Shown piece by piece: positions 259 through 56,164 of a stretch of DNA of 64,000 bases. The notes beneath the pieces were generated by a model. The model ran no database searches. It had not been told where the DNA came from and saw only the letters and a program-made list of their open reading frames with translations. Within the stretch, counting starts at the first letter, position 1. Each line of letters begins with the position of its first letter. A program made the position numbers and the translations under genes. The stretch comes from Azolla caroliniana (Eukaryota; Plantae; Polypodiophyta): positions 14,384,001-14,448,000 of the forward strand of contig JBHGNT010000010.1 in NCBI GenBank assembly GCA_043228905.1. The letters run 5' to 3'.

Positions 259-746
<488 letters not shown>

Positions 747-4716: not shown

Positions 4717-5597
4717 AATGACATTACATAATGATCTATGATGTATCTAGTTTTTCCAATGCCTATTGTTGTACCCCGGAGTCTCGTGTAAAAAACAAGG
4801 ATCCGAACCAACTAGACTACAATAGAATTGATTTAGTGCATGAATTAGTTAATATAATATTCTAGTGCTTTGCTTCAAATAAAGAACTATGACGCAATGT
4901 TGATCGAGAGTTCACCATTATTCTACAATCTATGCGTATTTCGGGAAACTCTATGAAGTTATCCAAACTATAATTGTCGGTGTACTAATTTGTAGCAACC
5001 ATGTTGACAAATAACCACGACTAAATATATTGTTTCTTCTTGTCCCGAACAACCTAATGTTTTGTCAAATTTCATTTGAAACCTCTCCTATTAATTGAAT
5101 AATGGGATTAAGTTTGCAAGCATCCACAAAAAAACTGAGGATTATTCTAACGCACTTTCATTTTTAACATTTAATAATGTCAAGGGCTTTTATAGATGCC
5201 ACATTAACTCATGATATATGATAGACCTGCTTGTACCCGGGCGTCTCAGGTAAAAAGCAAGGATCCGGGGCAACTTGATTACAATGGAATTCATTTAGTA
5301 AATGAAATAGTGGATGTACCACTCTAGCCTTTGTTACAAATAAAGAAACATGGTGCAATGCTCATCGTACCAATGTCCATTATTCTGCAATCTATGCGTA
5401 TTTTTTGAAATTGTATCCAGTTATCCAAACTATAATTGTTGGTGTACCAATTTGTCGTACCAATGTTGACGAATAACCACAGCCAAAGATGGTGCTTCTT
5501 GTTGTCCCGAACGACATAATGTTTTGTCCAATTTCATTTGAAACCTCTACCATGAATCGAATAATGGGATTAAGTTTAGAAATTGATGTTAGGAGAG

Positions 5598-5602
5598 AAA
5601 AA
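5598..5602 (-). terminator. First candidate Pol III terminator (T5) downstream of the tRNA, recurring every 1620 bp
   Basis: aaaaa on +; no run of 4 or more A lies between 5603 and 5756. Confidence 0.5.
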
Positions 5603-5756
5603 TCAAAGTAATGTTCGTCATCAATCCTTCAAACATAATATTGATTATTTTGTTAATTGCACATTATCGTAACATCTACTTTAGGTCTTGAGTTTTTGAG
5701 TTGTCAAACAGTTAACACATGATATGCGTCCGAAATTTAATATATGATATTGTCGT

Positions 5757-5829
5757 TTCCATTGCCGGGAGTTGAACCCGGGTCTCTCGGGTGAGAGCCG
5801 AGTATCCTAACCAACTAGACTACAATGGA
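5757..5829 (-). tRNA. trnE-CUC: tRNA-Glu(CUC), copy 1
   Basis: Minus strand TCCATTGTAGTCTAGTTGGTTAGGATACTCGGCTCTCACCCGAGAGACCCGGGTTCAACTCCCGGCAATGGAA, 73 nt. Acceptor stem TCCATTG/CAATGGA, anticodon arm CTCGG-CT-CTC-AC-CCGAG, T arm CCGGG-TTCAACT-CCCGG, A and B boxes present; resembles plant cytosolic tRNA-Glu. Confidence 0.96.
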
Positions 5830-6386
5830 TCACATGTTGGGTGCTTTTTATCGTAACGATCATTGATTCGTAATAAATAATATTTATATATTGCGCAAAC
5901 AAGGATCCGAACCAGCTAGACTACAATGGAATTCATTTAGTAAATGATTTAGTTAATGCAATATTCCAGTGGTTCACTTAAAATATAGAAACATGGTGCA
6001 ATGCTCATCGACAGTTGACCAATAGTCTGCGATCTATGCGTATTGCTTGAAATTGTATTGTGATATCCAAACTATAATTGTTGGTGTACTAATTTGTCGT
6101 ACCAATGTTGACGACTAACCAAAACCAAATATACTGCTTCTTGTTGTCCCGAACAACATAATGTTGTCCCTAACCAACTAGATTACAATGGCTCCTATCT
6201 TGTGTATAGATATATTGCAATCATAGATTAGTAACAAATAATATTTACATATTGCGCAAGCATCAACAAGAAACTGAGGATTACTCTCACACGCTCTCGT
6301 TTTTAACATTTAATCATTTCAAGGGGTTTTATCGATGCGACATTACATAATGATCTATGATGTATCTAGTTTTCCCAATGCCTATT

Positions 6387-6445
6387 GTTGTACCCCGGAG
6401 TCTCGTGTAGAAAACAAGGATCCGAACCAACTAGACTACAATAGA
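6387..6445 (-). pseudogene. Degenerate tRNA-Glu relic A (one per unit; representative copy)
   Basis: Minus strand TCTATTGTAGTCTAGTTGGTTCGGATCCTTGTTTT...GAGACTCCGGGGTACAAC aligns with the 5' three-quarters of the tRNA. Confidence 0.8.
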
Positions 6446-6850
6446 ATTGATTTAGTGCATGAATTAGTTAATATAATATTCTAGTGCTTTGCTTCAAATA
6501 AAGAACTATGACGCAATGTTGATCGAGAGTTCACCATTATTCTACAATCTATGCGTAGTTCGGGAAACTCTATGAGGTTATCCAAACTATAATTGTCGGT
6601 GTACTAATTTGTCGCAACCATGTTGACAAATAACCACGACTAAATATATTGCTTCTTCTTGTCCCGAACAACCTAATGTTTTGTCAAATTTCATTTGAAA
6701 CCTCTCCTATTAATTGAATAATGGGATTAAGTTTGCAAGCATCCACAAAAAAACTGAGGATTATTCTAACGCACTTTCATTTTTAACATTTAATAATGTC
6801 AAGGGCTTTTATCGATGCCACATTAACTCATGATATATGATAGACCTGCT

Positions 6851-6907
6851 TGTACCCGGGCGTCTCAGGTAAAAAGCAAGGATCCGGGGCAACTTGATTA
6901 CAATGGA
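6851..6907 (-). pseudogene. Degenerate tRNA-Glu relic B (one per unit; representative copy)
   Basis: Minus strand TCCATTGTAATCAAGTTGCCCCGGATCCTTGCTTTTTACCTGAGACGCCCGGGTACA. Confidence 0.8.
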
Positions 6908-7376
6908 ATTCATTTAGTAAATGAAATAGTTGATGTACCACTCTAGCCCTTTGTTACAAATAAAGAAACATGGTGCAATGCTCATCGTACCAATGTCCAT
7001 TATTCTGCAATCTATGCGTATTTTTTGAAATTGTATCCAGTTATCCAAACTATAATTGTTGGTGTACCAATTTGTCGTACCAATGTTGACGAATAACCAC
7101 AGCCAAAGATGCTGCTTCTTGTTGTCCCGAACGACATAATGTTTTGTCCAATTTCATTTGAAACCTCTACCATGAATCGAATAATGGGATTAAGTTTAGA
7201 AATTGATGTTAGGAGAGAAAAATCAAAGTAATGTTCGTCATCAATCCTTCAAACATAATATTGATTATTTTGTTAATTGCACATTATCGTAACATCTACT
7301 TTAGGTCTTGAGTTTTTGAGTTGTCAAACAGTTAACACATGATATGCGTCCGAAATTTAATATATGATATTGTCGT

Positions 7377-7449
7377 TTCCATTGCCGGGAGTTGAACCCG
7401 GGTCTCTCGGGTGAGAGCCGAGTATCCTAACCAACTAGACTACAATGGA
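7377..7449 (-). tRNA. trnE-CUC: tRNA-Glu(CUC), copy 2
   Basis: Same sequence as copy 1. Confidence 0.95.
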
Positions 7450-7519
7450 TCACATGTTGGGTGCTTTTTATCGTAACGATCATTGATTCGTAATAAATAA
7501 TATTTATATATTGCGCAAA

Positions 7520-7550
7520 CAAGGATCCGAACCAGCTAGACTACAATGGA
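7520..7550 (-). pseudogene. tRNA-Glu 5' fragment, relic D (one per unit; representative copy)
   Basis: Minus strand TCCATTGTAGTCTAGCTGGTTCGGATCCTTG, covering the acceptor 5' strand and A box. Confidence 0.75.
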
Positions 7551-7788
7551 ATTCATTTAGTAAATGATTTAGTTAATGCAATATTCCAGTGGTTCACTTA
7601 AAATATAGAAACATGGTGCAATGCTCATCGACAGTTGACCAATAGTCTGCGATCTATGCGTATTGCTTGAAATTGTATTGTGATATCCAAACTATAATTG
7701 TTGGTGTACTAATTTGTCGTACCAATGTTGACGACTAACCAAAACCAAATATACTGCTTCTTGTTGTCCCGAACAACATAATGTTGTC

Positions 7789-7811
7789 CCTAACCAACTA
7801 GATTACAATGG
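7789..7811 (-). pseudogene. tRNA-Glu 5' fragment, relic E (one per unit; representative copy)
   Basis: Minus strand CCATTGTAATCTAGTTGGTTAGG, with an upstream flank homologous to the leader of the intact tRNA (aaataatattta.atattgcgcaa). Confidence 0.7.
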
Positions 7812-8996
7812 CTCCTATCTTGTGTATAGATATATTGCAATCATAGATTAGTAACAAATAATATTTACATATTGCGCAAGCATCAACAAGAAACTGAGGA
7901 TTACTCTCACACGCTCTCGTTTTTAACATTTAATCATTTCAAGGGGTTTTATCGATGCGACATTACATAATGATCTATGATGTATCTAGTTTTCCCAATG
8001 CCTATTGTTGTACCCCGGAGTCTCGTGTACAAAACAAGGATCCGAACCAACTAGACTACAATAGAATTGATTTAGTGCATGAATTAGTTAATATAATATT
8101 CTAGTGCTTTGCTTCAAATAAAGAACCATGACGCAATGTTGATCGAGAGTTCACCATTATTCTACAATCTATGCGTAGTTCGGGAAACTCTATGAGGTTA
8201 TCCAAACTATAATTGTCGGTGTACTAATTTGTCGCAACCATGTTGACAAATAACCACGACTAAATATATTGTTTCTTCTTGTCCCGAACAACCTAATGTT
8301 TTGTCAAATTTCATTTGAAACCTCTCCTATTAATTGAATAATGGGATTAAGTTTGCAAGCATCCACAAAAAAACTGAGGATTATTCTAACGCACTTTCAT
8401 TTTTAACATTTAATAATGTCAAGGGCTTTTATCGATGCCACATTAACTCATGATATATGATAGACCTGCTTGTACCCGGGCGTCTCAGGTAAAAAGCAAG
8501 GATCCGGGGCAACTTGATTACAATGGAATTCATTTAGTAAATGAAATAGTGGATGTACCACTCTAGCCCTTTGTTACAAATAAAGAAACATGGTGCAATG
8601 CTCATCGTACCAATGTCCATTATTCTGCAATCTATGCGTATTTTTTGAAATTGTATCCAGTTATCCAAACTATAATTGTTGGTGTACCAATTTGTCGTAC
8701 CAATGTTGACGAATAACCACAGCCAAAGATGCTGCTTCTTGTTGTCCCGAACGACATAATGTTTTGTCCAATTTCATTTGAAACCTCTACCATGAATCGA
8801 ATAATGGGATTAAGTTTAGAAATTGATGTTAGGAGAGAAAAATCAAACTAATGTTCGTCATCAATCCTTCAAACATAATATTGATTATTTTGTTAATTGC
8901 ACATTATCGTAACATCTACTTTAGGTCTTGAGTTTTTGAGTTGTCAAACAGTTAACACATGATATGCGTCCGAAATTTAATATATGATATTGTCGT

Positions 8997-9069
8997 TTCC
9001 ATTGCCGGGAGTTGAACCCGGGTCTCTCGGGTGAGAGCCGAGTATCCTAACCAACTAGACTACAATGGA
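8997..9069 (-). tRNA. trnE-CUC: tRNA-Glu(CUC), copy 3
   Basis: Same sequence as copy 1. Confidence 0.95.
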
Positions 9070-10616
9070 TCACATGTTGGGTGCTTTTTATCGTAACGAT
9101 CGTTGATTCGTAATAAATAATATTTATATATTGCGCAAACAAGGATCCGAACCAGCTAGACTACAATGGAATTCATTTAGTAAATGATTTAGTTAATGTA
9201 ATATTCCAGTGGTTCACTTCAAATATAGAAACATGGTGCAATGCTCATCGACAGTTGACCAATAGTCTGCGATCTATGCGTATTGCTTGAAATTGTATTG
9301 TGATATCCAAACTATAATTGTTGGTGTACTAATTTGTCGTACCAATGTTGACGACTAACCAAAACCAAATATACTGCTTCTTGTTGTCCCGAACAACATA
9401 ATGTTGTCCCTAACCAACTAGATTACAATGGCTCCTATCTTGTGTATAGATATATTGCAATCATAGATTAGTAACAAATAATATTTACATATTGCGCAAG
9501 CATCAACAAGAAACTGAGGATTACTCTCACACGCTCTCGTTTTTAACATTTAATCATTTCAAGGGGTTTTATCGATGCGACATTACATAATGATCTATGA
9601 TGTATCTAGTTTTCCCAATGCCTATTGTTGTACCCCGGAGTCTCGTGTACAAAACAAGGATCCGAACCAACTAGACTACAATAGAATTGATTTAGTGCAT
9701 GAATTAGTTAATATAATATTCTAGTGCTTTGCTTCAAATAAAGAACCATGACGCAATGTTGATCGAGAGTTCACCATTATTCTACAATCTATGCGTAGTT
9801 CGGGAAACTCTATGAGGTTATCCAAACTATAATTGTCGGTGTACTAATTTGTCGCAACCATGTTGACAAATAACCACGACTAAATATATTGTTTCTTCTT
9901 GTCCCGAACAACCTAATGTTTTGTCAAATTTCATTTGAAACCTCTCCTATTAATTGAATAATGGGATTAAGTTTGCAAGCATCCACAAAAAAACTGAGGA
10001 TTATTCTAACGCACTTTCATTTTTAACATTTAATAATGTCAAGGGCTTTTATCGATGCCACATTAACTCATGATATATGATAGACCTGCTTGTACCCGGG
10101 CGTCTCAGGTAAAAAGCAAGGATCCGGGGCAACTTGATTACAATGGAATTCATTTAGTAAATGAAATAGTGGATGTACCACTCTAGCCCTTTGTTACAAA
10201 TAAAGAAACATGGTGCAATGCTCATCGTACCAATGTCCATTATTCTGCAATCTATGCGTATTTTTTGAAATTGTATCCAGTTATCCAAACTATAATTGTT
10301 GGTGTACCAATTTGTCGTACCAATGTTGACGAATAACCACAGCCAAAGATGCTGCTTCTTGTTGTCCCGAACGACATAATGTTTTGTCCAATTTCATTTG
10401 AAACCTCTACCATGAATCGAATAATGGGATTAAGTTTAGAAATTGATGTTAGGAGAGAAAAATCAAACTAATGTTCGTCATCAATCCTTCAAACATAATA
10501 TTGATTATTTTGTTAATTGCACATTATCGTAACATCTACTTTAGGTCTTGAGTTTTTGAGTTGTCAAACAGTTAACACATGATATGCGTCCGAAATTTAA
10601 TATATGATATTGTCGT

Positions 10617-10689
10617 TTCCATTGCCGGGAGTTGAACCCGGGTCTCTCGGGTGAGAGCCGAGTATCCTAACCAACTAGACTACAATGGA
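10617..10689 (-). tRNA. trnE-CUC: tRNA-Glu(CUC), copy 4
   Basis: Same sequence as copy 1. Confidence 0.95.
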
Positions 10690-12236
10690 TCACATGTTGG
10701 GTGCTTTTTATCGTAACGATCATTGATTCGTAATAAATAATATTTATATATTGCGCAAACAAGGATCCGAACCAGCTAGACTACAATGGAATTCATTTAG
10801 TAAATGATTTAGTTAATGTAATATTCCAGTGGTTCACTTCAAATATAGAAACATGGTGCAATGCTCATCGACAGTTGACCAATAGTCTGCGATCTATGCG
10901 TATTGCTTGAAATTGTATTGTGATATCCAAACTATAATTGTTGGTGTACTAATTTGTCGTACCAATGTTGACGACTAACCAAAACCAAATATACTGCTTC
11001 TTGTTGTCCCGAACAACATAATGTTGTCCCTAACCAACTAGATTACAATGGCTCCTATCTTGTGTATAGATATATTGCAATCATAGATTAGTAACAAATA
11101 ATATTTACATATTGCGCAAGCATCAACAAGAAACTGAGGATTACTCTCACACGCTCTCGTTTTTAACATTTAATCATTTCAAGGGGTTTTATCGATGCGA
11201 CATTACATAATGATCTATGATGTATCTAGTTTTCCCAATGCCTATTGTTGTACCCCGGAGTCTCGTGTACAAAACAAGGATCCGAACCAACTAGACTACA
11301 ATAGAATTGATTTAGTGCATGAATTAGTTAATATAATATTCTAGTGCTTTGCTTCAAATAAAGAACCATGACGCAATGTTGATCGAGAGTTCACCATTAT
11401 TCTACAATCTATGCGTAGTTCGGGAAACTCTATGAGGTTATCCAAACTATAATTGTCGGTGTACTAATTTGTCGCAACCATGTTGACAAATAACCACGAC
11501 TAAATATATTGTTTCTTCTTGTCCCGAACAACCTAATGTTTTGTCAAATTTCATTTGAAACCTCTCCTATTAATTGAATAATGGGATTAAGTTTGCAAGC
11601 ATCCACAAAAAAACTGAGGATTATTCTAACGCACTTTCATTTTTAACATTTAATAATGTCAAGGGCTTTTATCGATGCCACATTAACTCATGATATATGA
11701 TAGACCTGCTTGTACCCGGGCGTCTCAGGTAAAAAGCAAGGATCCGGGGCAACTTGATTACAATGGAATTCATTTAGTAAATGAAATAGTGGATGTACCA
11801 CTCTAGCCCTTTGTTACAAATAAAGAAACATGGTGCAATGCTCATCGTACCAATGTCCATTATTCTGCAATCTATGCGTATTTTTTGAAATTGTATCCAG
11901 TTATCCAAACTATAATTGTTGGTGTACCAATTTGTCGTACCAATGTTGACGAATAACCACAGCCAAAGATGCTGCTTCTTGTTGTCCCGAACGACATAAT
12001 GTTTTGTCCAATTTCATTTGAAACCTCTACCATGAATCGAATAATGGGATTAAGTTTAGAAATTGATGTTAGGAGAGAAAAATCAAACTAATGTTCGTCA
12101 TCAATCCTTCAAACATAATATTGATTATTTTGTTAATTGCACATTATCGTAACATCTACTTTAGGTCTTGAGTTTTTGAGTTGTCAAACAGTTAACACAT
12201 GATATGCGTCCGAAATTTAATATATGATATTGTCGT

Positions 12237-12309
12237 TTCCATTGCCGGGAGTTGAACCCGGGTCTCTCGGGTGAGAGCCGAGTATCCTAACCAACTAGAC
12301 TACAATGGA
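12237..12309 (-). tRNA. trnE-CUC: tRNA-Glu(CUC), copy 5
   Basis: Same sequence as copy 1. Confidence 0.95.
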
Positions 12310-13856
12310 TCACATGTTGGGTGCTTTTTATCGTAACGATCATTGATTCGTAATAAATAATATTTATATATTGCGCAAACAAGGATCCGAACCAGCTAGA
12401 CTACAATGGAATTCATTTAGTAAATGATTTAGTTAATGTAATATTCCAGTGGTTCACTTCAAATATAGAAACATGGTGCAATGCTCATCGACAGTTGACC
12501 AATAGTCTGCGATCTATGCGTATTGCTTGAAATTGTATTGTGATATCCAAACTATAATTGTTGGTGTACTAATTTGTCGTACCAATGTTGACGACTAACC
12601 AAAACCAAATATACTGCTTCTTGTTGTCCCGAACAACATAATGTTGTCCCTAACCAACTAGATTACAATGGCTCCTATCTTGTGTATAGATATATTGCAA
12701 TCATAGATTAGTAACAAATAATATTTACATATTGCGCAAGCATCAACAAGAAACTGAGGATTACTCTCACACGCTCTCGTTTTTAACATTTAATCATTTC
12801 AAGGGGTTTTATCGATGCGACATTACATAATGATCTATGATGTATCTAGTTTTCCCAATGCCTATTGTTGTACCCCGGAGTCTCGTGTACAAAACAAGGA
12901 TCCGAACCAACTAGACTACAATAGAATTGATTTAGTGCATGAATTAGTTAATATAATATTCTAGTGCTTTGCTTCAAATAAAGAACCATGACGCAATGTT
13001 GATCGAGAGTTCACCATTATTCTACAATCTATGCGTAGTTCGGGAAACTCTATGAGGTTATCCAAACTATAATTGTCGGTGTACTAATTTGTCGCAACCA
13101 TGTTGACAAATAACCACGACTAAATATATTGTTTCTTCTTGTCCCGAACAACCTAATGTTTTGTCAAATTTCATTTGAAACCTCTCCTATTAATTGAATA
13201 ATGGGATTAAGTTTGCAAGCATCCACAAAAAAACTGAGGATTATTCTAACGCACTTTCATTTTTAACATTTAATAATGTCAAGGGCTTTTATCGATGCCA
13301 CATTAACTCATGATATATGATAGACCTGCTTGTACCCGGGCGTCTCAGGTAAAAAGCAAGGATCCGGGGCAACTTGATTACAATGGAATTCATTTAGTAA
13401 ATGAAATAGTGGATGTACCACTCTAGCCCTTTGTTACAAATAAAGAAACATGGTGCAATGCTCATCGTACCAATGTCCATTATTCTGCAATCTATGCGTA
13501 TTTTTTGAAATTGTATCCAGTTATCCAAACTATAATTGTTGGTGTACCAATTTGTCGTACCAATGTTGACGAATAACCACAGCCAAAGATGCTGCTTCTT
13601 GTTGTCCCGAACGACATAATGTTTTGTCCAATTTCATTTGAAACCTCTACCATGAATCGAATAATGGGATTAAGTTTAGAAATTGATGTTAGGAGAGAAA
13701 AATCAAACTAATGTTCGTCATCAATCCTTCAAACATAATATTGATTATTTTGTTAATTGCACATTATCGTAACATCTACTTTAGGTCTTGAGTTTTTGAG
13801 TTGTCAAACAGTTAACACATGATATGCGTCCGAAATTTAATATATGATATTGTCGT

Positions 13857-13929
13857 TTCCATTGCCGGGAGTTGAACCCGGGTCTCTCGGGTGAGAGCCG
13901 AGTATCCTAACCAACTAGACTACAATGGA
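13857..13929 (-). tRNA. trnE-CUC: tRNA-Glu(CUC), copy 6
   Basis: Same sequence as copy 1. Confidence 0.95.
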
Positions 13930-15476
13930 TCACATGTTGGGTGCTTTTTATCGTAACGATCATTGATTCGTAATAAATAATATTTATATATTGCGCAAAC
14001 AAGGATCCGAACCAGCTAGACTACAATGGAATTCATTTAGTAAATGATTTAGTTAATGTAATATTCCAGTGGTTCACTTCAAATATAGAAACATGGTGCA
14101 ATGCTCATCGACAGTTGACCAATAGTCTGCGATCTATGCGTATTGCTTGAAATTGTATTGTGATATCCAAACTATAATTGTTGGTGTACTAATTTGTCGT
14201 ACCAATGTTGACGACTAACCAAAACCAAATATACTGCTTCTTGTTGTCCCGAACAACATAATGTTGTCCCTAACCAACTAGATTACAATGGCTCCTATCT
14301 TGTGTATAGATATATTGCAATCATAGATTAGTAACAAATAATATTTACATATTGCGCAAGCATCAACAAGAAACTGAGGATTACTCTCACACGCTCTCGT
14401 TTTTAACATTTAATCATTTCAAGGGGTTTTATCGATGCGACATTACATAATGATCTATGATGTATCTAGTTTTCCCAATGCCTATTGTTGTACCCCGGAG
14501 TCTCGTGTACAAAACAAGGATCCGAACCAACTAGACTACAATAGAATTGATTTAGTGCATGAATTAGTTAATATAATATTCTAGTGCTTTGCTTCAAATA
14601 AAGAACCATGACGCAATGTTGATCGAGAGTTCACCATTATTCTACAATCTATGCGTAGTTCGGGAAACTCTATGAGGTTATCCAAACTATAATTGTCGGT
14701 GTACTAATTTGTCGCAACCATGTTGACAAATAACCACGACTAAATATATTGTTTCTTCTTGTCCCGAACAACCTAATGTTTTGTCAAATTTCATTTGAAA
14801 CCTCTCCTATTAATTGAATAATGGGATTAAGTTTGCAAGCATCCACAAAAAAACTGAGGATTATTCTAACGCACTTTCATTTTTAACATTTAATAATGTC
14901 AAGGGCTTTTATCGATGCCACATTAACTCATGATATATGATAGACCTGCTTGTACCCGGGCGTCTCAGGTAAAAAGCAAGGATCCGGGGCAACTTGATTA
15001 CAATGGAATTCATTTAGTAAATGAAATAGTGGATGTACCACTCTAGCCCTTTGTTACAAATAAAGAAACATGGTGCAATGCTCATCGTACCAATGTCCAT
15101 TATTCTGCAATCTATGCGTATTTTTTGAAATTGTATCCAGTTATCCAAACTATAATTGTTGGTGTACCAATTTGTCGTACCAATGTTGACGAATAACCAC
15201 AGCCAAAGATGCTGCTTCTTGTTGTCCCGAACGACATAATGTTTTGTCCAATTTCATTTGAAACCTCTACCATGAATCGAATAATGGGATTAAGTTTAGA
15301 AATTGATGTTAGGAGAGAAAAATCAAACTAATGTTCGTCATCAATCCTTCAAACATAATATTGATTATTTTGTTAATTGCACATTATCGTAACATCTACT
15401 TTAGGTCTTGAGTTTTTGAGTTGTCAAACAGTTAACACATGATATGCGTCCGAAATTTAATATATGATATTGTCGT

Positions 15477-15549
15477 TTCCATTGCCGGGAGTTGAACCCG
15501 GGTCTCTCGGGTGAGAGCCGAGTATCCTAACCAACTAGACTACAATGGA
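15477..15549 (-). tRNA. trnE-CUC: tRNA-Glu(CUC), copy 7
   Basis: Same sequence as copy 1. Confidence 0.95.
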
Positions 15550-17096: not shown

Positions 17097-17169
17097 TTCC
17101 ATTGCCGGGAGTTGAACCCGGGTCTCTCGGGTGAGAGCCGAGTATCCTAACCAACTAGACTACAATGGA
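17097..17169 (-). tRNA. trnE-CUC: tRNA-Glu(CUC), copy 8
   Basis: Same sequence as copy 1. Confidence 0.95.
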
Positions 17170-18716: not shown

Positions 18717-18789
18717 TTCCATTGCCGGGAGTTGAACCCGGGTCTCTCGGGTGAGAGCCGAGTATCCTAACCAACTAGACTACAATGGA
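18717..18789 (-). tRNA. trnE-CUC: tRNA-Glu(CUC), copy 9
   Basis: Same sequence as copy 1. Confidence 0.95.
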
Positions 18790-36864: not shown

Positions 36865-36890
36865 AGTACTCTGCGTTGATTACACTGCTT
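36865..36890 (-). other. SMART / PacBio ultra-low-input adapter-like sequence (technical artefact)
   Basis: agtactctgcgttgattacactgctt; reverse complement AAGCAGTGTAATCAACGCAGAGTACT matches AAGCAGTGGTATCAACGCAGAGTACT at 24 of 26 positions and replaces 26 bp of consensus in one unit only. Confidence 0.9.
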
Positions 36891-38156: not shown

Positions 38157-38229
38157 TTCCATTGCCGGGAGTTGAACCCGGGTCTCTCGGGTGAGAGCCG
38201 AGTATCCTAACCAACTAGACTACAATGGA
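38157..38229 (-). tRNA. trnE-CUC: tRNA-Glu(CUC), copy 21
   Basis: Same sequence as copy 1. Confidence 0.95.
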
Positions 38230-39776: not shown

Positions 39777-39849
39777 TTCCATTGCCGGGAGTTGAACCCG
39801 GGTCTCTCGGGTGAGAGCCGAGTATCCTAACCAACTAGACTACAATGGA
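39777..39849 (-). tRNA. trnE-CUC: tRNA-Glu(CUC), copy 22
   Basis: Same sequence as copy 1. Confidence 0.95.
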
Positions 39850-41396: not shown

Positions 41397-41469
41397 TTCC
41401 ATTGCCGGGAGTTGAACCCGGGTCTCTCGGGTGAGAGCCGAGTATCCTAACCAACTAGACTACAATGGA
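41397..41469 (-). tRNA. trnE-CUC: tRNA-Glu(CUC), copy 23
   Basis: Same sequence as copy 1. Confidence 0.95.
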
Positions 41470-43016
41470 TCACATGTTGGGTGCTTTTTATCGTAACGAT
41501 CATTGATTCGTAATAAATAATATTTATATATTGCGCAAACAAGGATCCGAACCAGCTAGACTACAATGGAATTCATTTAGTAAATGATTTAGTTAATGTA
41601 ATATTCCAGTGGTTCACTTCAAATATAGAAACATGGTGCAATGCTCATCGACAGTTGACCAATAGTCTGCGATCTATGCGTATTGCTTGAAATTGTATTG
41701 TGATATCCAAACTATAATTGTTGGTGTACTAATTTGTCGTACCAATGTTGACGACTAACCAAAACCAAATATACTGCTTCTTGTTGTCCCGAACAACATA
41801 ATGTTGTCCCTAACCAACTAGATTACAATGGCTCCTATCTTGTGTATAGATATATTGCAATCATAGATTAGTAATAAATAATATTTACATATTGCGCAAG
41901 CATCAACAAGAAACTGAGGATTACTCTCACACGCTCTCGTTTTTAACATTTAATCATTTCAAGGGGTTTTATCGATGCGACATTACATAATGATCTATGA
42001 TGTATCTAGTTTTCCCAATGCCTATTGTTGTACCCCGGAGTCTCGTGTAGAAAACAAGGATCCGAACCAACTAGACTACAATAGAATTGATTTAGTGCAT
42101 GAATTAGTTAATATAATATTCTAGTGCTTTGCTTCAAATAAAGAACTATGACGCAATGTTGATCGAGAGTTCACCATTATTCTACAATCTATGCGTATTT
42201 CGGGAAACTCTATGAAGTTATCCAAACTATAATTGCCGGTGTACTAATTTGTCGTAACCATGTTGACAAATAACCACGACTAAATATATTGTTTCTTCTT
42301 GTCCCGAACAACCTAATGTTTTGTCAAATTTCATTTGAAACCTCTCCTATTAATTGAATAATGGGATTAAGTTTGCAAGCATCCACAAAAAAACTGAGGA
42401 TTATTCTAACGCACTTTCATTTTTAACATTTAATAATGTCAAGGGCTTTTATCGATGCCACATTAACTCATGATATATGATAGACCTGCTTGTACCCGGG
42501 CGTCTCAGGTAAAAAGCAAGGATCCGGGGCAACTTGATTACAATGGAATTCATTTAGTAAATGAAATAGTGGATGTACCACTCTAGCCCTTTGTTACAAA
42601 TAAAGAAACATGGTGCAATGCTCATCGTACCAATGTCCATTATTCTGCAATCTATGCGTATTTTTTGAAATTGTATCCAGTTATCCAAACTATAATTGTT
42701 GGTGTACCAATTTGTCGTACCAATGTTGACGAATAACCACAGCCAAAGATGCTGCTTCTTGTTGTCCCGAACGACATAATGTTTTGTCCAATTTCATTTG
42801 AAACCTCTACCATGAATCGAATAATGGGATTAAGTTTAGAAATTGATGTTAGGAGAGAAAAATCAAACTAATGTTCGTCATCAATCCTTCAAACATAATA
42901 TTGATTATTTTGTTAATTGCACATTATCGTAACATCTACTTTAGGTCTTGAGTTTTTGAGTTGTCAAACAGTTAACACATGATATGCGTCCGAAATTTAA
43001 TATATGATATTGTCGT

Positions 43017-43089
43017 TTCCATTGCCGGGAGTTGAACCCGGGTCTCTCGGGTGAGAGCCGAGTATCCTAACCAACTAGACTACAATGGA
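43017..43089 (-). tRNA. trnE-CUC: tRNA-Glu(CUC), copy 24
   Basis: Same sequence as copy 1. Confidence 0.95.
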
Positions 43090-44636
43090 TCACATGTTGG
43101 GTGCTTTTTATCGTAACGATCATTGATTCGTAATAAATAATATTTATATATTGCGCAAACAAGGATCCGAACCAGCTAGACTACAATGGAATTCATTTAG
43201 TAAATGATTTAGTTAATGTAATATTCCAGTGGTTCACTTCAAATATAGAAACATGGTGCAATGCTCATCGACAGTTGACCAATAGTCTGCGATCTATGCG
43301 TATTGCTTGAAATTGTATTGTGATATCCAAACTATAATTGTTGGTGTACTAATTTGTCGTACCAATGTTGACGACTAACCAAAACCAAATATACTGCTTC
43401 TTGTTGTCCCGAACAACATAATGTTGTCCCTAACCAACTAGATTACAATGGCTCCTATCTTGTGTATAGATATATTGCAATCATAGATTAGTAATAAATA
43501 ATATTTACATATTGCGCAAGCATCAACAAGAAACTGAGGATTACTCTCACACGCTCTCGTTTTTAACATTTAATCATTTCAAGGGGTTTTATCGATGCGA
43601 CATTACATAATGATCTATGATGTATCTAGTTTTCCCAATGCCTATTGTTGTACCCCGGAGTCTCGTGTAGAAAACAAGGATCCGAACCAACTAGACTACA
43701 ATAGAATTGATTTAGTGCATGAATTAGTTAATATAATATTCTAGTGCTTTGCTTCAAATAAAGAACTATGACGCAATGTTGATCGAGAGTTCACCATTAT
43801 TCTACAATCTATGCGTATTTCGGGAAACTCTATGAAGTTATCCAAACTATAATTGCCGGTGTACTAATTTGTCGTAACCATGTTGACAAATAACCACGAC
43901 TAAATATATTGTTTCTTCTTGTCCCGAACAACCTAATGTTTTGTCAAATTTCATTTGAAACCTCTCCTATTAATTGAATAATGGGATTAAGTTTGCAAGC
44001 ATCCACAAAAAAACTGAGGATTATTCTAACGCACTTTCATTTTTAACATTTAATAATGTCAAGGGCTTTTATCGATGCCACATTAACTCATGATATATGA
44101 TAGACCTGCTTGTACCCGGGCGTCTCAGGTAAAAAGCAAGGATCCGGGGCAACTTGATTACAATGGAATTCATTTAGTAAATGAAATAGTGGATGTACCA
44201 CTCTAGCCCTTTGTTACAAATAAAGAAACATGGTGCAATGCTCATCGTACCAATGTCCATTATTCTGCAATCTATGCGTATTTTTTGAAATTGTATCCAG
44301 TTATCCAAACTATAATTGTTGGTGTACCAATTTGTCGTACCAATGTTGACGAATAACCACAGCCAAAGATGCTGCTTCTTGTTGTCCCGAACGACATAAT
44401 GTTTTGTCCAATTTCATTTGAAACCTCTACCATGAATCGAATAATGGGATTAAGTTTAGAAATTGATGTTAGGAGAGAAAAATCAAACTAATGTTCGTCA
44501 TCAATCCTTCAAACATAATATTGATTATTTTGTTAATTGCACATTATCGTAACATCTACTTTAGGTCTTGAGTTTTTGAGTTGTCAAACAGTTAACACAT
44601 GATATGCGTCCGAAATTTAATATATGATATTGTCGT

Positions 44637-44709
44637 TTCCATTGCCGGGAGTTGAACCCGGGTCTCTCGGGTGAGAGCCGAGTATCCTAACCAACTAGAC
44701 TACAATGGA
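44637..44709 (-). tRNA. trnE-CUC: tRNA-Glu(CUC), copy 25
   Basis: Same sequence as copy 1. Confidence 0.95.
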
Positions 44710-46256
44710 TCACATGTTGGGTGCTTTTTATCGTAACGATCATTGATTCGTAATAAATAATATTTATATATTGCGCAAACAAGGATCCGAACCAGCTAGA
44801 CTACAATGGAATTCATTTAGTAAATGATTTAGTTAATGTAATATTCCAGTGGTTCACTTCAAATATAGAAACATGGTGCAATGCTCATCGACAGTTGACC
44901 AATAGTCTGCGATCTATGCGTATTGCTTGAAATTGTATTGTGATATCCAAACTATAATTGTTGGTGTACTAATTTGTCGTACCAATGTTGACGACTAACC
45001 AAAACCAAATATACTGCTTCTTGTTGTCCCGAACAACATAATGTTGTCCCTAACCAACTAGATTACAATGGCTCCTATCTTGTGTATAGATATATTGCAA
45101 TCATAGATTAGTAATAAATAATATTTACATATTGCGCAAGCATCAACAAGAAACTGAGGATTACTCTCACACGCTCTCGTTTTTAACATTTAATCATTTC
45201 AAGGGGTTTTATCGATGCGACATTACATAATGATCTATGATGTATCTAGTTTTCCCAATGCCTATTGTTGTACCCCGGAGTCTCGTGTAGAAAACAAGGA
45301 TCCGAACCAACTAGACTACAATAGAATTGATTTAGTGCATGAATTAGTTAATATAATATTCTAGTGCTTTGCTTCAAATAAAGAACTATGACGCAATGTT
45401 GATCGAGAGTTCACCATTATTCTACAATCTATGCGTATTTCGGGAAACTCTATGAAGTTATCCAAACTATAATTGCCGGTGTACTAATTTGTCGTAACCA
45501 TGTTGACAAATAACCACGACTAAATATATTGTTTCTTCTTGTCCCGAACAACCTAATGTTTTGTCAAATTTCATTTGAAACCTCTCCTATTAATTGAATA
45601 ATGGGATTAAGTTTGCAAGCATCCACAAAAAAACTGAGGATTATTCTAACGCACTTTCATTTTTAACATTTAATAATGTCAAGGGCTTTTATCGATGCCA
45701 CATTAACTCATGATATATGATAGACCTGCTTGTACCCGGGCGTCTCAGGTAAAAAGCAAGGATCCGGGGCAACTTGATTACAATGGAATTCATTTAGTAA
45801 ATGAAATAGTGGATGTACCACTCTAGCCCTTTGTTACAAATAAAGAAACATGGTGCAATGCTCATCGTACCAATGTCCATTATTCTGCAATCTATGCGTA
45901 TTTTTTGAAATTGTATCCAGTTATCCAAACTATAATTGTTGGTGTACCAATTTGTCGTACCAATGTTGACGAATAACCACAGCCAAAGATGCTGCTTCTT
46001 GTTGTCCCGAACGACATAATGTTTTGTCCAATTTCATTTGAAACCTCTACCATGAATCGAATAATGGGATTAAGTTTAGAAATTGATGTTAGGAGAGAAA
46101 AATCAAACTAATGTTCGTCATCAATCCTTCAAACATAATATTGATTATTTTGTTAATTGCACATTATCGTAACATCTACTTTAGGTCTTGAGTTTTTGAG
46201 TTGTCAAACAGTTAACACATGATATGCGTCCGAAATTTAATATATGATATTGTCGT

Positions 46257-46329
46257 TTCCATTGCCGGGAGTTGAACCCGGGTCTCTCGGGTGAGAGCCG
46301 AGTATCCTAACCAACTAGACTACAATGGA
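46257..46329 (-). tRNA. trnE-CUC: tRNA-Glu(CUC), copy 26
   Basis: Same sequence as copy 1. Confidence 0.95.
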
Positions 46330-47876
46330 TCACATGTTGGGTGCTTTTTATCGTAACGATCATTGATTCGTAATAAATAATATTTATATATTGCGCAAAC
46401 AAGGATCCGAACCAGCTAGACTACAATGGAATTCATTTAGTAAATGATTTAGTTAATGTAATATTCCAGTGGTTCACTTCAAATATAGAAACATGGTGCA
46501 ATGCTCATCGACAGTTGACCAATAGTCTGCGATCTATGCGTATTGCTTGAAATTGTATTGTGATATCCAAACTATAATTGTTGGTGTACTAATTTGTCGT
46601 ACCAATGTTGACGACTAACCAAAACCAAATATACTGCTTCTTGTTGTCCCGAACAACATAATGTTGTCCCTAACCAACTAGATTACAATGGCTCCTATCT
46701 TGTGTATAGATATATTGCAATCATAGATTAGTAATAAATAATATTTACATATTGCGCAAGCATCAACAAGAAACTGAGGATTACTCTCACACGCTCTCGT
46801 TTTTAACATTTAATCATTTCAAGGGGTTTTATCGATGCGACATTACATAATGATCTATGATGTATCTAGTTTTCCCAATGCCTATTGTTGTACCCCGGAG
46901 TCTCGTGTAGAAAACAAGGATCCGAACCAACTAGACTACAATAGAATTGATTTAGTGCATGAATTAGTTAATATAATATTCTAGTGCTTTGCTTCAAATA
47001 AAGAACTATGACGCAATGTTGATCGAGAGTTCACCATTATTCTACAATCTATGCGTATTTCGGGAAACTCTATGAAGTTATCCAAACTATAATTGCCGGT
47101 GTACTAATTTGTCGTAACCATGTTGACAAATAACCACGACTAAATATATTGTTTCTTCTTGTCCCGAACAACCTAATGTTTTGTCAAATTTCATTTGAAA
47201 CCTCTCCTATTAATTGAATAATGGGATTAAGTTTGCAAGCATCCACAAAAAAACTGAGGATTATTCTAACGCACTTTCATTTTTAACATTTAATAATGTC
47301 AAGGGCTTTTATCGATGCCACATTAACTCATGATATATGATAGACCTGCTTGTACCCGGGCGTCTCAGGTAAAAAGCAAGGATCCGGGGCAACTTGATTA
47401 CAATGGAATTCATTTAGTAAATGAAATAGTGGATGTACCACTCTAGCCCTTTGTTACAAATAAAGAAACATGGTGCAATGCTCATCGTACCAATGTCCAT
47501 TATTCTGCAATCTATGCGTATTTTTTGAAATTGTATCCAGTTATCCAAACTATAATTGTTGGTGTACCAATTTGTCGTACCAATGTTGACGAATAACCAC
47601 AGCCAAAGATGCTGCTTCTTGTTGTCCCGAACGACATAATGTTTTGTCCAATTTCATTTGAAACCTCTACCATGAATCGAATAATGGGATTAAGTTTAGA
47701 AATTGATGTTAGGAGAGAAAAATCAAACTAATGTTCGTCATCAATCCTTCAAACATAATATTGATTATTTTGTTAATTGCACATTATCGTAACATCTACT
47801 TTAGGTCTTGAGTTTTTGAGTTGTCAAACAGTTAACACATGATATGCGTCCGAAATTTAATATATGATATTGTCGT

Positions 47877-47949
47877 TTCCATTGCCGGGAGTTGAACCCG
47901 GGTCTCTCGGGTGAGAGCCGAGTATCCTAACCAACTAGACTACAATGGA
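47877..47949 (-). tRNA. trnE-CUC: tRNA-Glu(CUC), copy 27
   Basis: Same sequence as copy 1. Confidence 0.95.
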
Positions 47950-49496
47950 TCACATGTTGGGTGCTTTTTATCGTAACGATCATTGATTCGTAATAAATAA
48001 TATTTATATATTGCGCAAACAAGGATCCGAACCAGCTAGACTACAATGGAATTCATTTAGTAAATGATTTAGTTAATGTAATATTCCAGTGGTTCACTTC
48101 AAATATAGAAACATGGTGCAATGCTCATCGACAGTTGACCAATAGTCTGCGATCTATGCGTATTGCTTGAAATTGTATTGTGATATCCAAACTATAATTG
48201 TTGGTGTACTAATTTGTCGTACCAATGTTGACGACTAACCAAAACCAAATATACTGCTTCTTGTTGTCCCGAACAACATAATGTTGTCCCTAACCAACTA
48301 GATTACAATGGCTCCTATCTTGTGTATAGATATATTGCAATCATAGATTAGTAATAAATAATATTTACATATTGCGCAAGCATCAACAAGAAACTGAGGA
48401 TTACTCTCACACGCTCTCGTTTTTAACATTTAATCATTTCAAGGGGTTTTATCGATGCGACATTACATAATGATCTATGATGTATCTAGTTTTCCCAATG
48501 CCTATTGTTGTACCCCGGAGTCTCGTGTAGAAAACAAGGATCCGAACCAACTAGACTACAATAGAATTGATTTAGTGCATGAATTAGTTAATATAATATT
48601 CTAGTGCTTTGCTTCAAATAAAGAACTATGACGCAATGTTGATCGAGAGTTCACCATTATTCTACAATCTATGCGTATTTCGGGAAACTCTATGAAGTTA
48701 TCCAAACTATAATTGCCGGTGTACTAATTTGTCGTAACCATGTTGACAAATAACCACGACTAAATATATTGTTTCTTCTTGTCCCGAACAACCTAATGTT
48801 TTGTCAAATTTCATTTGAAACCTCTCCTATTAATTGAATAATGGGATTAAGTTTGCAAGCATCCACAAAAAAACTGAGGATTATTCTAACGCACTTTCAT
48901 TTTTAACATTTAATAATGTCAAGGGCTTTTATCGATGCCACATTAACTCATGATATATGATAGACCTGCTTGTACCCGGGCGTCTCAGGTAAAAAGCAAG
49001 GATCCGGGGCAACTTGATTACAATGGAATTCATTTAGTAAATGAAATAGTGGATGTACCACTCTAGCCCTTTGTTACAAATAAAGAAACATGGTGCAATG
49101 CTCATCGTACCAATGTCCATTATTCTGCAATCTATGCGTATTTTTTGAAATTGTATCCAGTTATCCAAACTATAATTGTTGGTGTACCAATTTGTCGTAC
49201 CAATGTTGACGAATAACCACAGCCAAAGATGCTGCTTCTTGTTGTCCCGAACGACATAATGTTTTGTCCAATTTCATTTGAAACCTCTACCATGAATCGA
49301 ATAATGGGATTAAGTTTAGAAATTGATGTTAGGAGAGAAAAATCAAACTAATGTTCGTCATCAATCCTTCAAACATAATATTGATTATTTTGTTAATTGC
49401 ACATTATCGTAACATCTACTTTAGGTCTTGAGTTTTTGAGTTGTCAAACAGTTAACACATGATATGCGTCCGAAATTTAATATATGATATTGTCGT

Positions 49497-49569
49497 TTCC
49501 ATTGCCGGGAGTTGAACCCGGGTCTCTCGGGTGAGAGCCGAGTATCCTAACCAACTAGACTACAATGGA
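49497..49569 (-). tRNA. trnE-CUC: tRNA-Glu(CUC), copy 28
   Basis: Same sequence as copy 1. Confidence 0.95.
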
Positions 49570-51116
49570 TCACATGTTGGGTGCTTTTTATCGTAACGAT
49601 CATTGATTCGTAATAAATAATATTTATATATTGCGCAAACAAGGATCCGAACCAGCTAGACTACAATGGAATTCATTTAGTAAATGATTTAGTTAATGTA
49701 ATATTCCAGTGGTTCACTTCAAATATAGAAACATGGTGCAATGCTCATCGACAGTTGACCAATAGTCTGCGATCTATGCGTATTGCTTGAAATTGTATTG
49801 TGATATCCAAACTATAATTGTTGGTGTACTAATTTGTCGTACCAATGTTGACGACTAACCAAAACCAAATATACTGCTTCTTGTTGTCCCGAACAACATA
49901 ATGTTGTCCCTAACCAACTAGATTACAATGGCTCCTATCTTGTGTATAGATATATTGCAATCATAGATTAGTAATAAATAATATTTACATATTGCGCAAG
50001 CATCAACAAGAAACTGAGGATTACTCTCACACGCTCTCGTTTTTAACATTTAATCATTTCAAGGGGTTTTATCGATGCGACATTACATAATGATCTATGA
50101 TGTATCTAGTTTTCCCAATGCCTATTGTTGTACCCCGGAGTCTCGTGTAGAAAACAAGGATCCGAACCAACTAGACTACAATAGAATTGATTTAGTGCAT
50201 GAATTAGTTAATATAATATTCTAGTGCTTTGCTTCAAATAAAGAACTATGACGCAATGTTGATCGAGAGTTCACCATTATTCTACAATCTATGCGTATTT
50301 CGGGAAACTCTATGAAGTTATCCAAACTATAATTGCCGGTGTACTAATTTGTCGTAACCATGTTGACAAATAACCACGACTAAATATATTGTTTCTTCTT
50401 GTCCCGAACAACCTAATGTTTTGTCAAATTTCATTTGAAACCTCTCCTATTAATTGAATAATGGGATTAAGTTTGCAAGCATCCACAAAAAAACTGAGGA
50501 TTATTCTAACGCACTTTCATTTTTAACATTTAATAATGTCAAGGGCTTTTATCGATGCCACATTAACTCATGATATATGATAGACCTGCTTGTACCCGGG
50601 CGTCTCAGGTAAAAAGCAAGGATCCGGGGCAACTTGATTACAATGGAATTCATTTAGTAAATGAAATAGTGGATGTACCACTCTAGCCCTTTGTTACAAA
50701 TAAAGAAACATGGTGCAATGCTCATCGTACCAATGTCCATTATTCTGCAATCTATGCGTATTTTTTGAAATTGTATCCAGTTATCCAAACTATAATTGTT
50801 GGTGTACCAATTTGTCGTACCAATGTTGACGAATAACCACAGCCAAAGATGCTGCTTCTTGTTGTCCCGAACGACATAATGTTTTGTCCAATTTCATTTG
50901 AAACCTCTACCATGAATCGAATAATGGGATTAAGTTTAGAAATTGATGTTAGGAGAGAAAAATCAAACTAATGTTCGTCATCAATCCTTCAAACATAATA
51001 TTGATTATTTTGTTAATTGCACATTATCGTAACATCTACTTTAGGTCTTGAGTTTTTGAGTTGTCAAACAGTTAACACATGATATGCGTCCGAAATTTAA
51101 TATATGATATTGTCGT

Positions 51117-51189
51117 TTCCATTGCCGGGAGTTGAACCCGGGTCTCTCGGGTGAGAGCCGAGTATCCTAACCAACTAGACTACAATGGA
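51117..51189 (-). tRNA. trnE-CUC: tRNA-Glu(CUC), copy 29
   Basis: Same sequence as copy 1. Confidence 0.95.
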
Positions 51190-52116
51190 TCACATGTTGG
51201 GTGCTTTTTATCGTAACGATCATTGATTCGTAATAAATAATATTTATATATTGCGCAAACAAGGATCCGAACCAGCTAGACTACAATGGAATTCATTTAG
51301 TAAATGATTTAGTTAATGTAATATTCCAGTGGTTCACTTCAAATATAGAAACATGGTGCAATGCTCATCGACAGTTGACCAATAGTCTGCGATCTATGCG
51401 TATTGCTTGAAATTGTATTGTGATATCCAAACTATAATTGTTGGTGTACTAATTTGTCGTACCAATGTTGACGACTAACCAAAACCAAATATACTGCTTC
51501 TTGTTGTCCCGAACAACATAATGTTGTCCCTAACCAACTAGATTACAATGGCTCCTATCTTGTGTATAGATATATTGCAATCATAGATTAGTAATAAATA
51601 ATATTTACATATTGCGCAAGCATCAACAAGAAACTGAGGATTACTCTCACACGCTCTCGTTTTTAACATTTAATCATTTCAAGGGGTTTTATCGATGCGA
51701 CATTACATAATGATCTATGATGTATCTAGTTTTCCCAATGCCTATTGTTGTACCCCGGAGTCTCGTGTAAAAAACAAGGATCCGAACCAACTAGACTACA
51801 ATAGAATTGATTTAGTGCATGAATTAGTTAATATAATATTCTAGTGCTTTGCTTCAAATAAAGAACTATGACGCAATGTTGATCGAGAGTTCACCATTAT
51901 TCTACAATCTATGCGTATTTCGGGAAACTCTATGAAGAAAAATTGATGTTAGGAGAGAAAAATCAAACTAATGTTCGTCATTAATCCTTCAAACATAATA
52001 TTGATTATTTTGTTAATTGCACATTATCGTAACATCTACTTTAGGTCTTGAGTTTTTGAGTTGTCAAACAGTTAACACATGATATGCGTCCGAAATTTAA
52101 TATATGATATTGTCGT

Positions 52117-52176
52117 TTCCATTGCCGGGTCTCTCAGGTGAGAGCCGAGTATCCTAACCAACTAGACTACAATGGA
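52117..52176 (-). pseudogene. tRNA-Glu(CUC) pseudogene lacking the T loop / B box (13-bp deletion)
   Basis: attgccggg[agttgaacccggg]tctctcagg: deletion between two ccggg direct repeats. Confidence 0.9.
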
Positions 52177-52472
52177 TCACATGTTGTGTGCTTTTTATCG
52201 TAACAATCATTGATTCGTAATAAATAATATTTATATATTGCGCAAGCATTAACGAAAAACTGAGGATTATTGTAACACATTCTCATTTTTAAGATTTAAT
52301 AATTTCAAGGGTTTTTATCGGACCCACATGAACTTATGATCTATGATGTATCTAGTGTTGTCATTGCCTATAGTTGTACCCGGGCGTCTCAGGTAAAAAA
52401 GCAATGATCCGAACCAACTAGACTACAATGGAATTCATTTAGTAAATAAATTAGTTAATGTAATATTCTAGT

Positions 52473-55663: not shown

Positions 55664-56164
<501 letters not shown>

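What the first reader, a model, noticed from the sequence alone, without database searches (positions are those of the whole stretch)
4720..52472. 48-kb tRNA-Glu(CUC) macrosatellite: 29 full-length tRNA genes in near-identical 1620-bp units
Seen: one canonical tRNA-Glu(CUC) per unit, all on the minus strand, 28 identical by eye and one with a wobble variant; spacers are almost invariant. Established: tandem tDNA clusters are known in plants (Arabidopsis Pro and Ser-Tyr-Tyr clusters, largely silenced) and tRNA arrays have proposed structural roles in Entamoeba. I do not recognise a described single-isoacceptor Glu(CUC) array of this architecture, but cannot search. Inference: rDNA-like concerted evolution. 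Possible roles are tRNA or tRNA-fragment dosage, a TFIIIC-based chromatin boundary, or a young satellite seeded by a tRNA gene. The tRNA staying intact while four sibling copies per unit decayed hints at selection on it.
Basis: partly seen in the sequence, partly recalled or inferred. Interest (0 to 1): 0.8.

Follow-up and report, generated by a model that had tools for sequence, protein, structure and literature searches.

The report
Fern glutamate-tRNA gene macrosatellite
A plant that is likely a fern carries 29 head-to-tail copies of a 1.6-kb unit, each with one intact glutamate tRNA gene and four broken ones; the intact gene was likely kept by selection and the repeat lacks the mutation scars of DNA methylation, so unlike the silenced tRNA clusters of Arabidopsis it may be an active and fast-changing tRNA source.

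Summary
Confirmed: 29 tRNA-Glu(CUC) genes at exact 1620-bp spacing, 28 identical, units 99.7% alike. The host is likely a fern. The unit is 2.5 rearranged copies of an older ~780-bp tRNA+pseudogene dimer, so its four remnants reflect two losses, not four. The intact gene shows no change since that split while paralogous flanks diverged 15-24% (P 0.003-0.0001): selection is supported for the ancestral gene, not for the copy number. Paralogs show no CG/CHG mutation excess, against fourfold in the neighbouring copia, suggesting a historically unmethylated locus. The first T4 terminator is 154 nt away, versus within 30 nt in 111 of 113 other plant Glu(CUC) loci. Contigs of four DNA runs show a larger family with sample-dependent variant levels. 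Expression is untested. Best reading: a recently re-amplified, probably transcribable tDNA array whose size drifts.

The parts
4721..52472 (-). Tandem tDNA array: unit 1 (4721-6339, 1619 bp), units 2-29 (6340-51699, 1620 bp each), partial unit 30 (51700-~51937) and rearranged end piece (51940-52472)
5757..51189 (-). 29 intact tRNA-Glu(CUC) genes, 73 nt, at 5757+1620k; A box and B box intact; allele A4:U69, C59
10617..10689 (-). Intact gene T in the reference unit (unit 4, 9580-11199); Rfam tRNA 66.6 bits
10440..10616 (-). Trailer block D of the intact gene; first run of 4 or more T (T5) lies at +155 to +159 (10458-10462), the predicted Pol III terminator
10690..10761 (-). Leader block upA: CAA at -10, 69% A+T at -35 to -20
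9613..9685 (-). Remnant R1: full-length pseudogene, 23 of 73 differences from the commonest plant allele, B box altered, T4 run in the anticodon arm
10090..10147 (-). Remnant R2: same pseudogene lineage, 3' end lost, T5 run in the anticodon arm
10762..10790 (-). Remnant R3: 5' 29 nt of the same pseudogene lineage
11029..11051 (-). Remnant R4: 5' 23 nt of a T-type gene truncated by deletion, followed by an upA-type leader 24% diverged from that of T
31709..31709 (-). Unit 17 variant C41>T (G-U wobble in the anticodon stem, CpG site)
36865..36890 (.). Unit 20: 14 substitutions in 26 bp without indel, no template found in the window; likely base-calling or polishing error, unexplained
51940..52472 (-). 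End piece in the order D-T-upA-C-R-upB (the inferred ancestral dimer); T carries a 13-bp deletion (52117-52176); R at 52360-52432
1..4716 (-). Left flank: 96.8% copy of 56163-60936 (RH37/52-type helicase exons and intron plus the 3' part of a copia), cut near the end of gag where the array begins
52473..53666 (-). Right flank: 5' part of a second, broken copia (primer site 53656-53666, gag, protease-like motif), cut where the array ends
55667..63481 (-). DEAD-box helicase gene (RH37/52 type), exons at about 63173-63481, 56794-56973, 56504-56611, 55667-56164; best named matches include ferns
57032..62018 (-). Full-length decayed copia in the helicase intron; LTRs 6.2% diverged, 5-bp target duplication; used as the methylated control

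Best explanation
This is a tandem array of 29 near-identical units that each hold one intact tRNA-Glu(CUC) gene, likely built by repeated unequal recombination from a functional, probably unmethylated tRNA locus and likely able to make tRNA, with a copy number that likely drifts rather than being selected. Steps: (1, inferred from shared changes) a tRNA-Glu gene with its flanks duplicated, one copy decayed, giving a ~780-bp gene+pseudogene dimer; (2, inferred from block order, shown in the end piece) the dimer duplicated and was trimmed by deletions into the 1620-bp unit of 2.5 dimers; (3, shown statistically) through this history the intact gene took no substitution while flanks diverged 15-24%; (4, inferred) a member of the family came to lie at the breakpoint of a segmental duplication between two broken copia elements; (5, shown as SNP blocks) that unit was expanded and homogenised locally, about ten times more recently than the duplication (0.3% versus 3.2%); (6, predicted, untested) Pol III transcribes the genes from intact A/B boxes into a precursor with a trailer of about 155 nt that is trimmed to a normal tRNA-Glu(CUC).
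For: Period, identity and distance-dependent divergence. Gene differs from the commonest of 117 plant alleles at 3 of 73 sites, two forming one compensated pair; A4 is shared by all five remnants and C59 and U69 by two of the three that keep a 3' part, so the intact lineage has 0 changes; P = 0.003 to 0.00009 for per-lineage rates of 7.5-12%. No methylation footprint: transition rates at CG/CHG/CHH 24/27/23% in array paralogs versus 8.2/9.0/2.0% in the copia duplicate; ts/tv 32/42 versus 86/27 (P = 7e-6); CpG o/e 0.96 versus 0.29-0.45 in intron and intergenic DNA. CAA at -10, inside the -10 to -3 window of PMC13437025. Four DNA runs from four studies cover all 30 bins and carry the end-to-start joint at roughly 8-13 times the depth of the flank, with unit sites at 37-64 times and the trailer at 81-224 times; one variant class is 28-32 times flank in two runs and 1-2 times in the other two (contig depths, rough).
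Against: No expression data at all. The terminator is unusually far (154 nt; 111 of 113 other loci within 30 nt, maximum 65), although that comparison set is probably mostly seed plants and non-angiosperm embryophytes have the fewest T4 tracts (PMC13437025). Among present units there is no sign of selection on the gene. The mutation footprint records the past: the recent changes alone do not reject methylation (3 of 10 transitions at CG/CHG, P = 0.07 against the copia pattern), and Arabidopsis clusters with intact cis-elements are silent (PMC7544208). The paralog test rests on 412 aligned bases. Gene conversion from other family copies could also keep the gene uniform. The window's own haplotype markers are at 0.8 times flank depth or less in all four runs, so 29 copies of this exact haplotype are not independently confirmed; no listed contig bridged either junction.
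Confidence: 0.55

Rival explanations
1. Silent passenger satellite: a once-functional tRNA unit was amplified neutrally and the array is now methylated and silent, like most Arabidopsis tDNA clusters; the genes are intact only because the expansion is young.
For: 0.3% divergence leaves no time for decay; 1 of 16 variable sites in the gene, 0.72 expected. The end copy has already lost 13 bp. Flanks are broken copia. No proximal terminator. Clustered Arabidopsis tDNAs are methylated and silent (PMC7544208 abstract).
Against: No CG/CHG excess or CpG loss over about 20% paralog divergence, in a family that is multi-copy in two labelled organisms; recent changes lean the same way.
Confidence: 0.27
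2. Selected dosage or structural array: the many copies themselves are maintained, either to supply tRNA-Glu(CUC) or its fragments in some tissue, or as a TFIIIC-bound boundary that keeps copia methylation away from the helicase gene.
For: Precedent: SYY cluster active in root-cap cells (PMC12308677 abstract); human 1q23.3 tDNA VNTR proposed as boundary (PMC4041453 abstract). All four runs hold tens of unit equivalents.
Against: Variant classes differ about 20-fold between samples; the array lies between two copia fragments, not between heterochromatin and a gene, and the helicase gene has a copia inside its own intron; no conserved non-tRNA motif was identified.
Confidence: 0.1
3. Assembly over-expansion: a short real array was lengthened by the assembler.
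For: Two runs of seven identical units (4-10 and 23-29); a scrambled 26-bp patch in unit 20; window-specific markers are rare in the four runs laid.
Against: 11 distinct unit sequences arranged in ordered blocks; both ends anchored in non-array DNA; exact joint at 8-13 times flank depth in four independent runs.
Confidence: 0.08

Closest known systems
Arabidopsis Ser-Tyr-Tyr (SYY) tDNA cluster (PMC7544208 sections 13-14 and abstract read; PMC12308677 abstract and section 7 read)
   Same: 27 regularly spaced units over about 40 kb, one orientation, pseudogenes enriched at the edges, growth by tandem duplication of whole units.
   Different: SYY is a three-gene heterocluster, heavily methylated, with short poly(T) terminators near the genes. 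Here one isoacceptor plus four remnants per unit, 99.7% unit identity, no methylation footprint, terminator 154 nt away.
Plant tDNA homoclusters: maize Ile and Ala, barley Gln, Arabidopsis Pro and Cys, Ceratodon Ile and Cys (PMC13437025 passages and section 7; PMC12652284 part 2 of 4; PMC10701932 abstract)
   Same: Single-isotype tandem arrays with uniform flanks; copy-number variation between accessions and a pseudogene in the Cys cluster.
   Different: No land-plant Glu-only cluster appears in the Glu rows of the 5-gene summary sheet of PMC13437025 Table S3 (first 30 of 150 hits seen; sunflower has Glu/Met mixed clusters, Drosophila a 5-gene Glu(CTC) one); that table holds no Azolla rows.
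Human 1q23.3 tDNA VNTR (PMC4041453, abstract)
   Same: Macrosatellite of tRNA-bearing units with 9-43 copies per allele and instability; tRNA genes conserved while spacers are not.
   Different: 7.3-kb GC-rich multi-isotype unit with a CTCF site; here 1.62 kb, 35% GC, one isotype.
Extreme tDNA count of the fern Azolla filiculoides (more than 7500 genes; PMC13578239 and PMC13437025 passages; 7848 in Table S1)
   Same: A fern genome with unexplained tDNA excess; arrays of this kind would produce such counts.
   Different: Those papers ascribe it loosely to duplication and repeats and describe no array. The host of this window is not identified beyond 'likely fern'.

Membership tests
Tandem tDNA homocluster (Hummel et al. 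definition) | Five or more closely spaced tRNA genes of one isotype | tested here: met
   29 Glu(CUC) genes 1620 bp apart; meets the 10 genes in 50 kb criterion; a strict 5-kb window holds only 4 genes
Tandem tDNA homocluster (Hummel et al. definition) | Same orientation and homogeneous flanks from whole-unit duplication | tested here: met
   All minus strand; 99.7% unit identity
Arabidopsis-type silenced tDNA cluster | Dense DNA methylation and transcriptional silence | tested here: inconclusive
   Indirect only: no historical CG/CHG mutation excess, which argues against; present methylation and expression not measurable here
Functional Pol III type-2 tRNA gene | Intact cloverleaf, A box, B box | tested here: met
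   Rfam 66.6 bits, all stems paired; 3 of 73 differences from the commonest plant allele, none in the A box, one (C59) in the T loop
Functional Pol III type-2 tRNA gene | Upstream CAA and A/T-rich leader | tested here: met
   CAA at -10; 69% A+T at -35 to -20
Functional Pol III type-2 tRNA gene | T4 or longer terminator within about 25 nt downstream | tested here: not met
   First T-run at +155; 111 of 113 other loci within 30 nt
Functional Pol III type-2 tRNA gene | Transcription and maturation | not testable with these tools
   No usable RNA reads were available
Macrosatellite / VNTR | Kilobase unit, tens of copies, copy-number variation between individuals | tested here: inconclusive
   Unit size and copies met; variant classes vary between samples but contig depths cannot assign that to this locus
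tRNA-derived SINE | Dispersed copies with A-rich or simple-repeat tail and target-site duplications | tested here: not met
   Head-to-tail units, no tail or target duplication around T or the remnants
Helitron-made tandem array | 5' TC and 3' CTRR with GC-rich hairpin, inserted in one AT target | tested here: not met
   Right end reads CTAG before T, but no TC start, only an AT-rich palindrome, and the two flanks are different elements
tRNA-snoRNA dicistronic gene | snoRNA directly 3' of the tRNA | tested here: not met
   No Rfam snoRNA in the trailer at E up to 5

The most novel reading that the evidence does not exclude
Some ferns keep a genome-wide family of unmethylated, actively transcribed tRNA-Glu macrosatellites that expand and contract between individuals like rDNA. 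They make long terminator-less precursors (about 230 nt), and their pseudogene copies, which keep the A box and have gained a T-run in the anticodon arm, could yield 5'-half-like RNAs directly. Such arrays would explain the thousands of tRNA genes reported for Azolla and make tRNA dosage a polymorphic trait.
Probability: 0.15. Interest if true: 0.75.

Novelty: new variant of a known kind. Interest (0 to 1): 0.45.

Why it matters
Plant tDNA clusters are treated as rare, methylated surplus, and a 2026 review calls their function unresolved (PMC13578239). This array gives a clean test: array-specific leader and trailer make its precursors distinguishable, sequence history points to low methylation, and variant levels differ between samples. 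It also offers a concrete structure behind the unexplained tDNA excess in a fern genome. If it proves silent, it is an ordinary addition to the list of tandem tRNA clusters.

Tried and rejected
No whole genome is held, so the genome-wide share of Glu(CUC) genes and other arrays could not be counted. Of 15 holders I laid 4 (X1, X4, X8, X10). Neither junction was shown bridged in the listed contig pieces (tables cut). Family-wide conservation of the gene versus spacer could not be tested because only 40 of 329 and 40 of 80 difference rows were shown. Tandem Repeats Finder misses the 1620 period (limit 500). Minimum-energy folding does not give the cloverleaf and does not separate the wobble variant; Rfam was used instead. 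Apart from tRNA-centred matches, none of 120 metagenome loci matched the spacer blocks; 3 of 120 were dropped as incomplete tRNAs and 4 more for short downstream sequence. SINE, Helitron and tRNA-snoRNA readings rejected (membership table). The site-share Fisher test (P = 5e-5) is not corrected for site composition and is not relied on. Eight literature searches found no description of this array; the main supplement of the 2018 fern genome paper (PMC6786969) was too large to read, and I recall, unverified, that it mentions proliferation of tRNA-Glu and tRNA-Asp genes in Azolla and Salvinia. The scan's own notes had no look-alike.
Full report
Observation. ARAGORN reports 29 tRNA-Glu(CTC) genes on the minus strand at exactly 1620-bp steps from 5757 to 51189. 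Twenty-eight are identical and unit 17 has one C-to-T change that makes a G-U pair in the anticodon stem. Units 2-29 are in register without indels, 99.70% alike on average, with 30 variable columns, 14 of them in one 26-bp patch of unit 20.

Setting. The left flank (1-4716) is a 96.8% copy of 56163-60936: exons and intron of a DEAD-box helicase plus the 3' part of a copia element. The copy breaks off near the end of gag and the first unit follows after four bases. On the right the array ends at about 52472 against the 5' part of a second broken copia. The array therefore sits at the breakpoint of a segmental duplication. The helicase is of the RH37/52 type; among the best-scoring named matches are Adiantum and Ceratopteris (84-87% on the last exon), although the top row is an angiosperm fusion protein and moss and Sphagnum proteins score similarly in identity. 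'Fern' is likely, not proven; no closer name follows from my calls.

Anatomy of the unit. Self-comparison shows sub-repeats 74-84% alike and four tRNA remnants. Two leader types occur: upA before the intact gene T and remnant R4, upB before R1, R2 and R3. R1-R3 and the remnant in the end piece share diagnostic changes, so they come from one pseudogene; R4 is a T-type copy cut to 23 nt. The end piece (51940-52472) shows the blocks in the order trailer-T-upA-C-R-upB, and contigs from other samples show joints that go back 766 and 781 bases. I infer an ancestral dimer of about 780 bp with one gene and one pseudogene, of which the present unit holds 2.5 trimmed copies.

Selection. A scan of metagenome contigs with the gene's core gave 120 loci, 117 with a whole tRNA. 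The array gene differs from the commonest allele (33 of 117) at A4, U69 (one compensated pair) and C59. A4 is in all five remnants; C59 and U69 are in two of the three remnants that keep a 3' part. The intact lineage has thus taken no substitution since it split from the pseudogene, which now differs at 20-23 sites, while paralogous flanks differ by 15-24%. Zero changes in 73 nt has probability 0.003 to 0.00009 at per-lineage rates of 7.5-12%. This supports long-term selection on the gene, or conversion from a selected pool. It does not extend to the 29 copies: 1 of 16 variable sites falls in the gene where 0.72 are expected. One other locus, L084, carries A4:U69 and a similar leader, so the allele is a natural isodecoder.

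Methylation history. In the duplicated copia body, transitions occur at 8.2% of CG, 9.0% of CHG and 2.0% of CHH sites (P about 2e-7 each). In three disjoint paralog pairs of the array flanks (412 bases) the rates are 24%, 27% and 23%, with no excess; ts/tv is 32/42 against 86/27 (P = 7e-6), and equals the copia's unmethylated part (20/27). CpG o/e is 0.96 in the unit, 0.29 in the intron, 0.45 in intergenic DNA and 0.37 in the older copia fragment; the younger copia is also 0.97, so o/e alone is not diagnostic. Of 21 recent changes, 10 are transitions, 3 at CG/CHG (25% expected flat, 58% copia-like; P = 0.07). I infer that the unit evolved largely unmethylated; its present state is unknown.

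Transcription signals. A and B boxes are intact, CAA lies at -10 and the leader is 69% A+T at -35 to -20. The first run of four T is 154 nt downstream, whereas 111 of 113 other loci have one within 30 nt and none beyond 65. PMC13437025 (section 7 read) reports that non-angiosperm embryophytes have the lowest share of T4 tracts, so this may be partly a lineage trait. No snoRNA lies in the trailer. If transcribed, the precursor would be about 230-240 nt.

Recent expansion. Differences between units rise from 1.2 for neighbours to 10 at the greatest distance, and SNPs form blocks (units 23-29 share six). This is the pattern of local unequal exchange. At 0.3% it is about ten times younger than the segmental duplication (3.2%) and twenty times younger than the copia insertion (LTRs 6.2%).

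Other samples. Fifteen DNA-type runs in 10 studies hold part of the unit, mostly of one coded organism and one of a second. I laid four. All cover the whole unit with 818-3260 contigs spread from 80 to 100% identity, and all show the end-to-start joint. Relative to the median depth of the 54.0-55.5 kb flank, the joint contig is 8-13-fold, a unit site 37-64-fold and a trailer site 81-224-fold. The tool warns that summed contig depth is not a copy number, overlaps inflate it and the flank may itself be two-copy, so these are orders of magnitude. They indicate a family of tens to a few hundred copies in several architectures. One variant class is 28-32-fold in two runs and 1-2-fold in the others; the markers private to this window are at 0.8-fold or less everywhere. 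So the kind of array is real and variable, but this exact 29-copy haplotype is seen only in the window.

Comparison. The nearest system is the Arabidopsis SYY cluster: 27 regular units in about 40 kb, methylated and mostly silent (PMC7544208), reactivated in root-cap cells (PMC12308677). Single-isotype arrays are known in maize, barley and Ceratodon and vary between accessions (PMC10701932 abstract). The human 1q23.3 VNTR is the macrosatellite precedent. Azolla filiculoides is reported with more than 7500 tRNA genes and no structural explanation. I found no land-plant Glu-only cluster in the summary rows I saw (first 30 of 150 hits) and no description of this array in eight searches; the unread main supplement of PMC6786969 may bear on this.

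Verdict. A real tandem tDNA homocluster, new in isotype, lineage and in its apparent lack of methylation and of a near terminator. Best reading, 0.55: a probably transcribable array from a long-selected gene, with drifting size. Silent passenger 0.27, selected dosage or boundary 0.10, assembly inflation 0.08. Interest 0.45.

Noticed in passing
window 9613-9685, 10090-10147, 52360-52432: The pseudogene lineage kept its 5' 26 nt (about 1 shared change) but changed about 14 of the 3' 47 nt (my count from the alignments; Fisher P = 0.013) and gained a T4-T6 run in the anticodon arm; conversion from the intact gene or selection on a 5'-half-like RNA could explain it.
   Followed up: partly
window 36865-36890: 14 substitutions in 26 bp in unit 20, no indel, no template elsewhere in the window.
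   Followed up: partly
window 4721-4958 and 51700-51937: The first 240 bp of unit 1 match the last partial unit at the far end (same alleles at unit positions 71, 219, 237) better than the units between them.
   Followed up: no
window 1-4716 versus 56163-60936: Segmental duplication about 56 kb apart carrying the 3' exons of the helicase and part of its intronic copia; the left copy is cut off from the 5' exons by the array.
   Followed up: partly
window 57032-62018: Full-length decayed copia with 5-bp target duplication inside the helicase intron; its two LTRs differ by several deletions.
   Followed up: partly
L084:284-378: The only one of 117 loci with the A4:U69 allele; it also has a similar leader and a distant terminator (65 nt). 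Possibly a related dispersed gene.
   Followed up: partly
window 31709 and 52149 region: The same C41>T change at a CpG occurs in unit 17, in the truncated end copy and in two remnants.
   Followed up: no
window 53911-53943: Perfect (AAAGCC)5.5 microsatellite in the intergenic flank.
   Followed up: no
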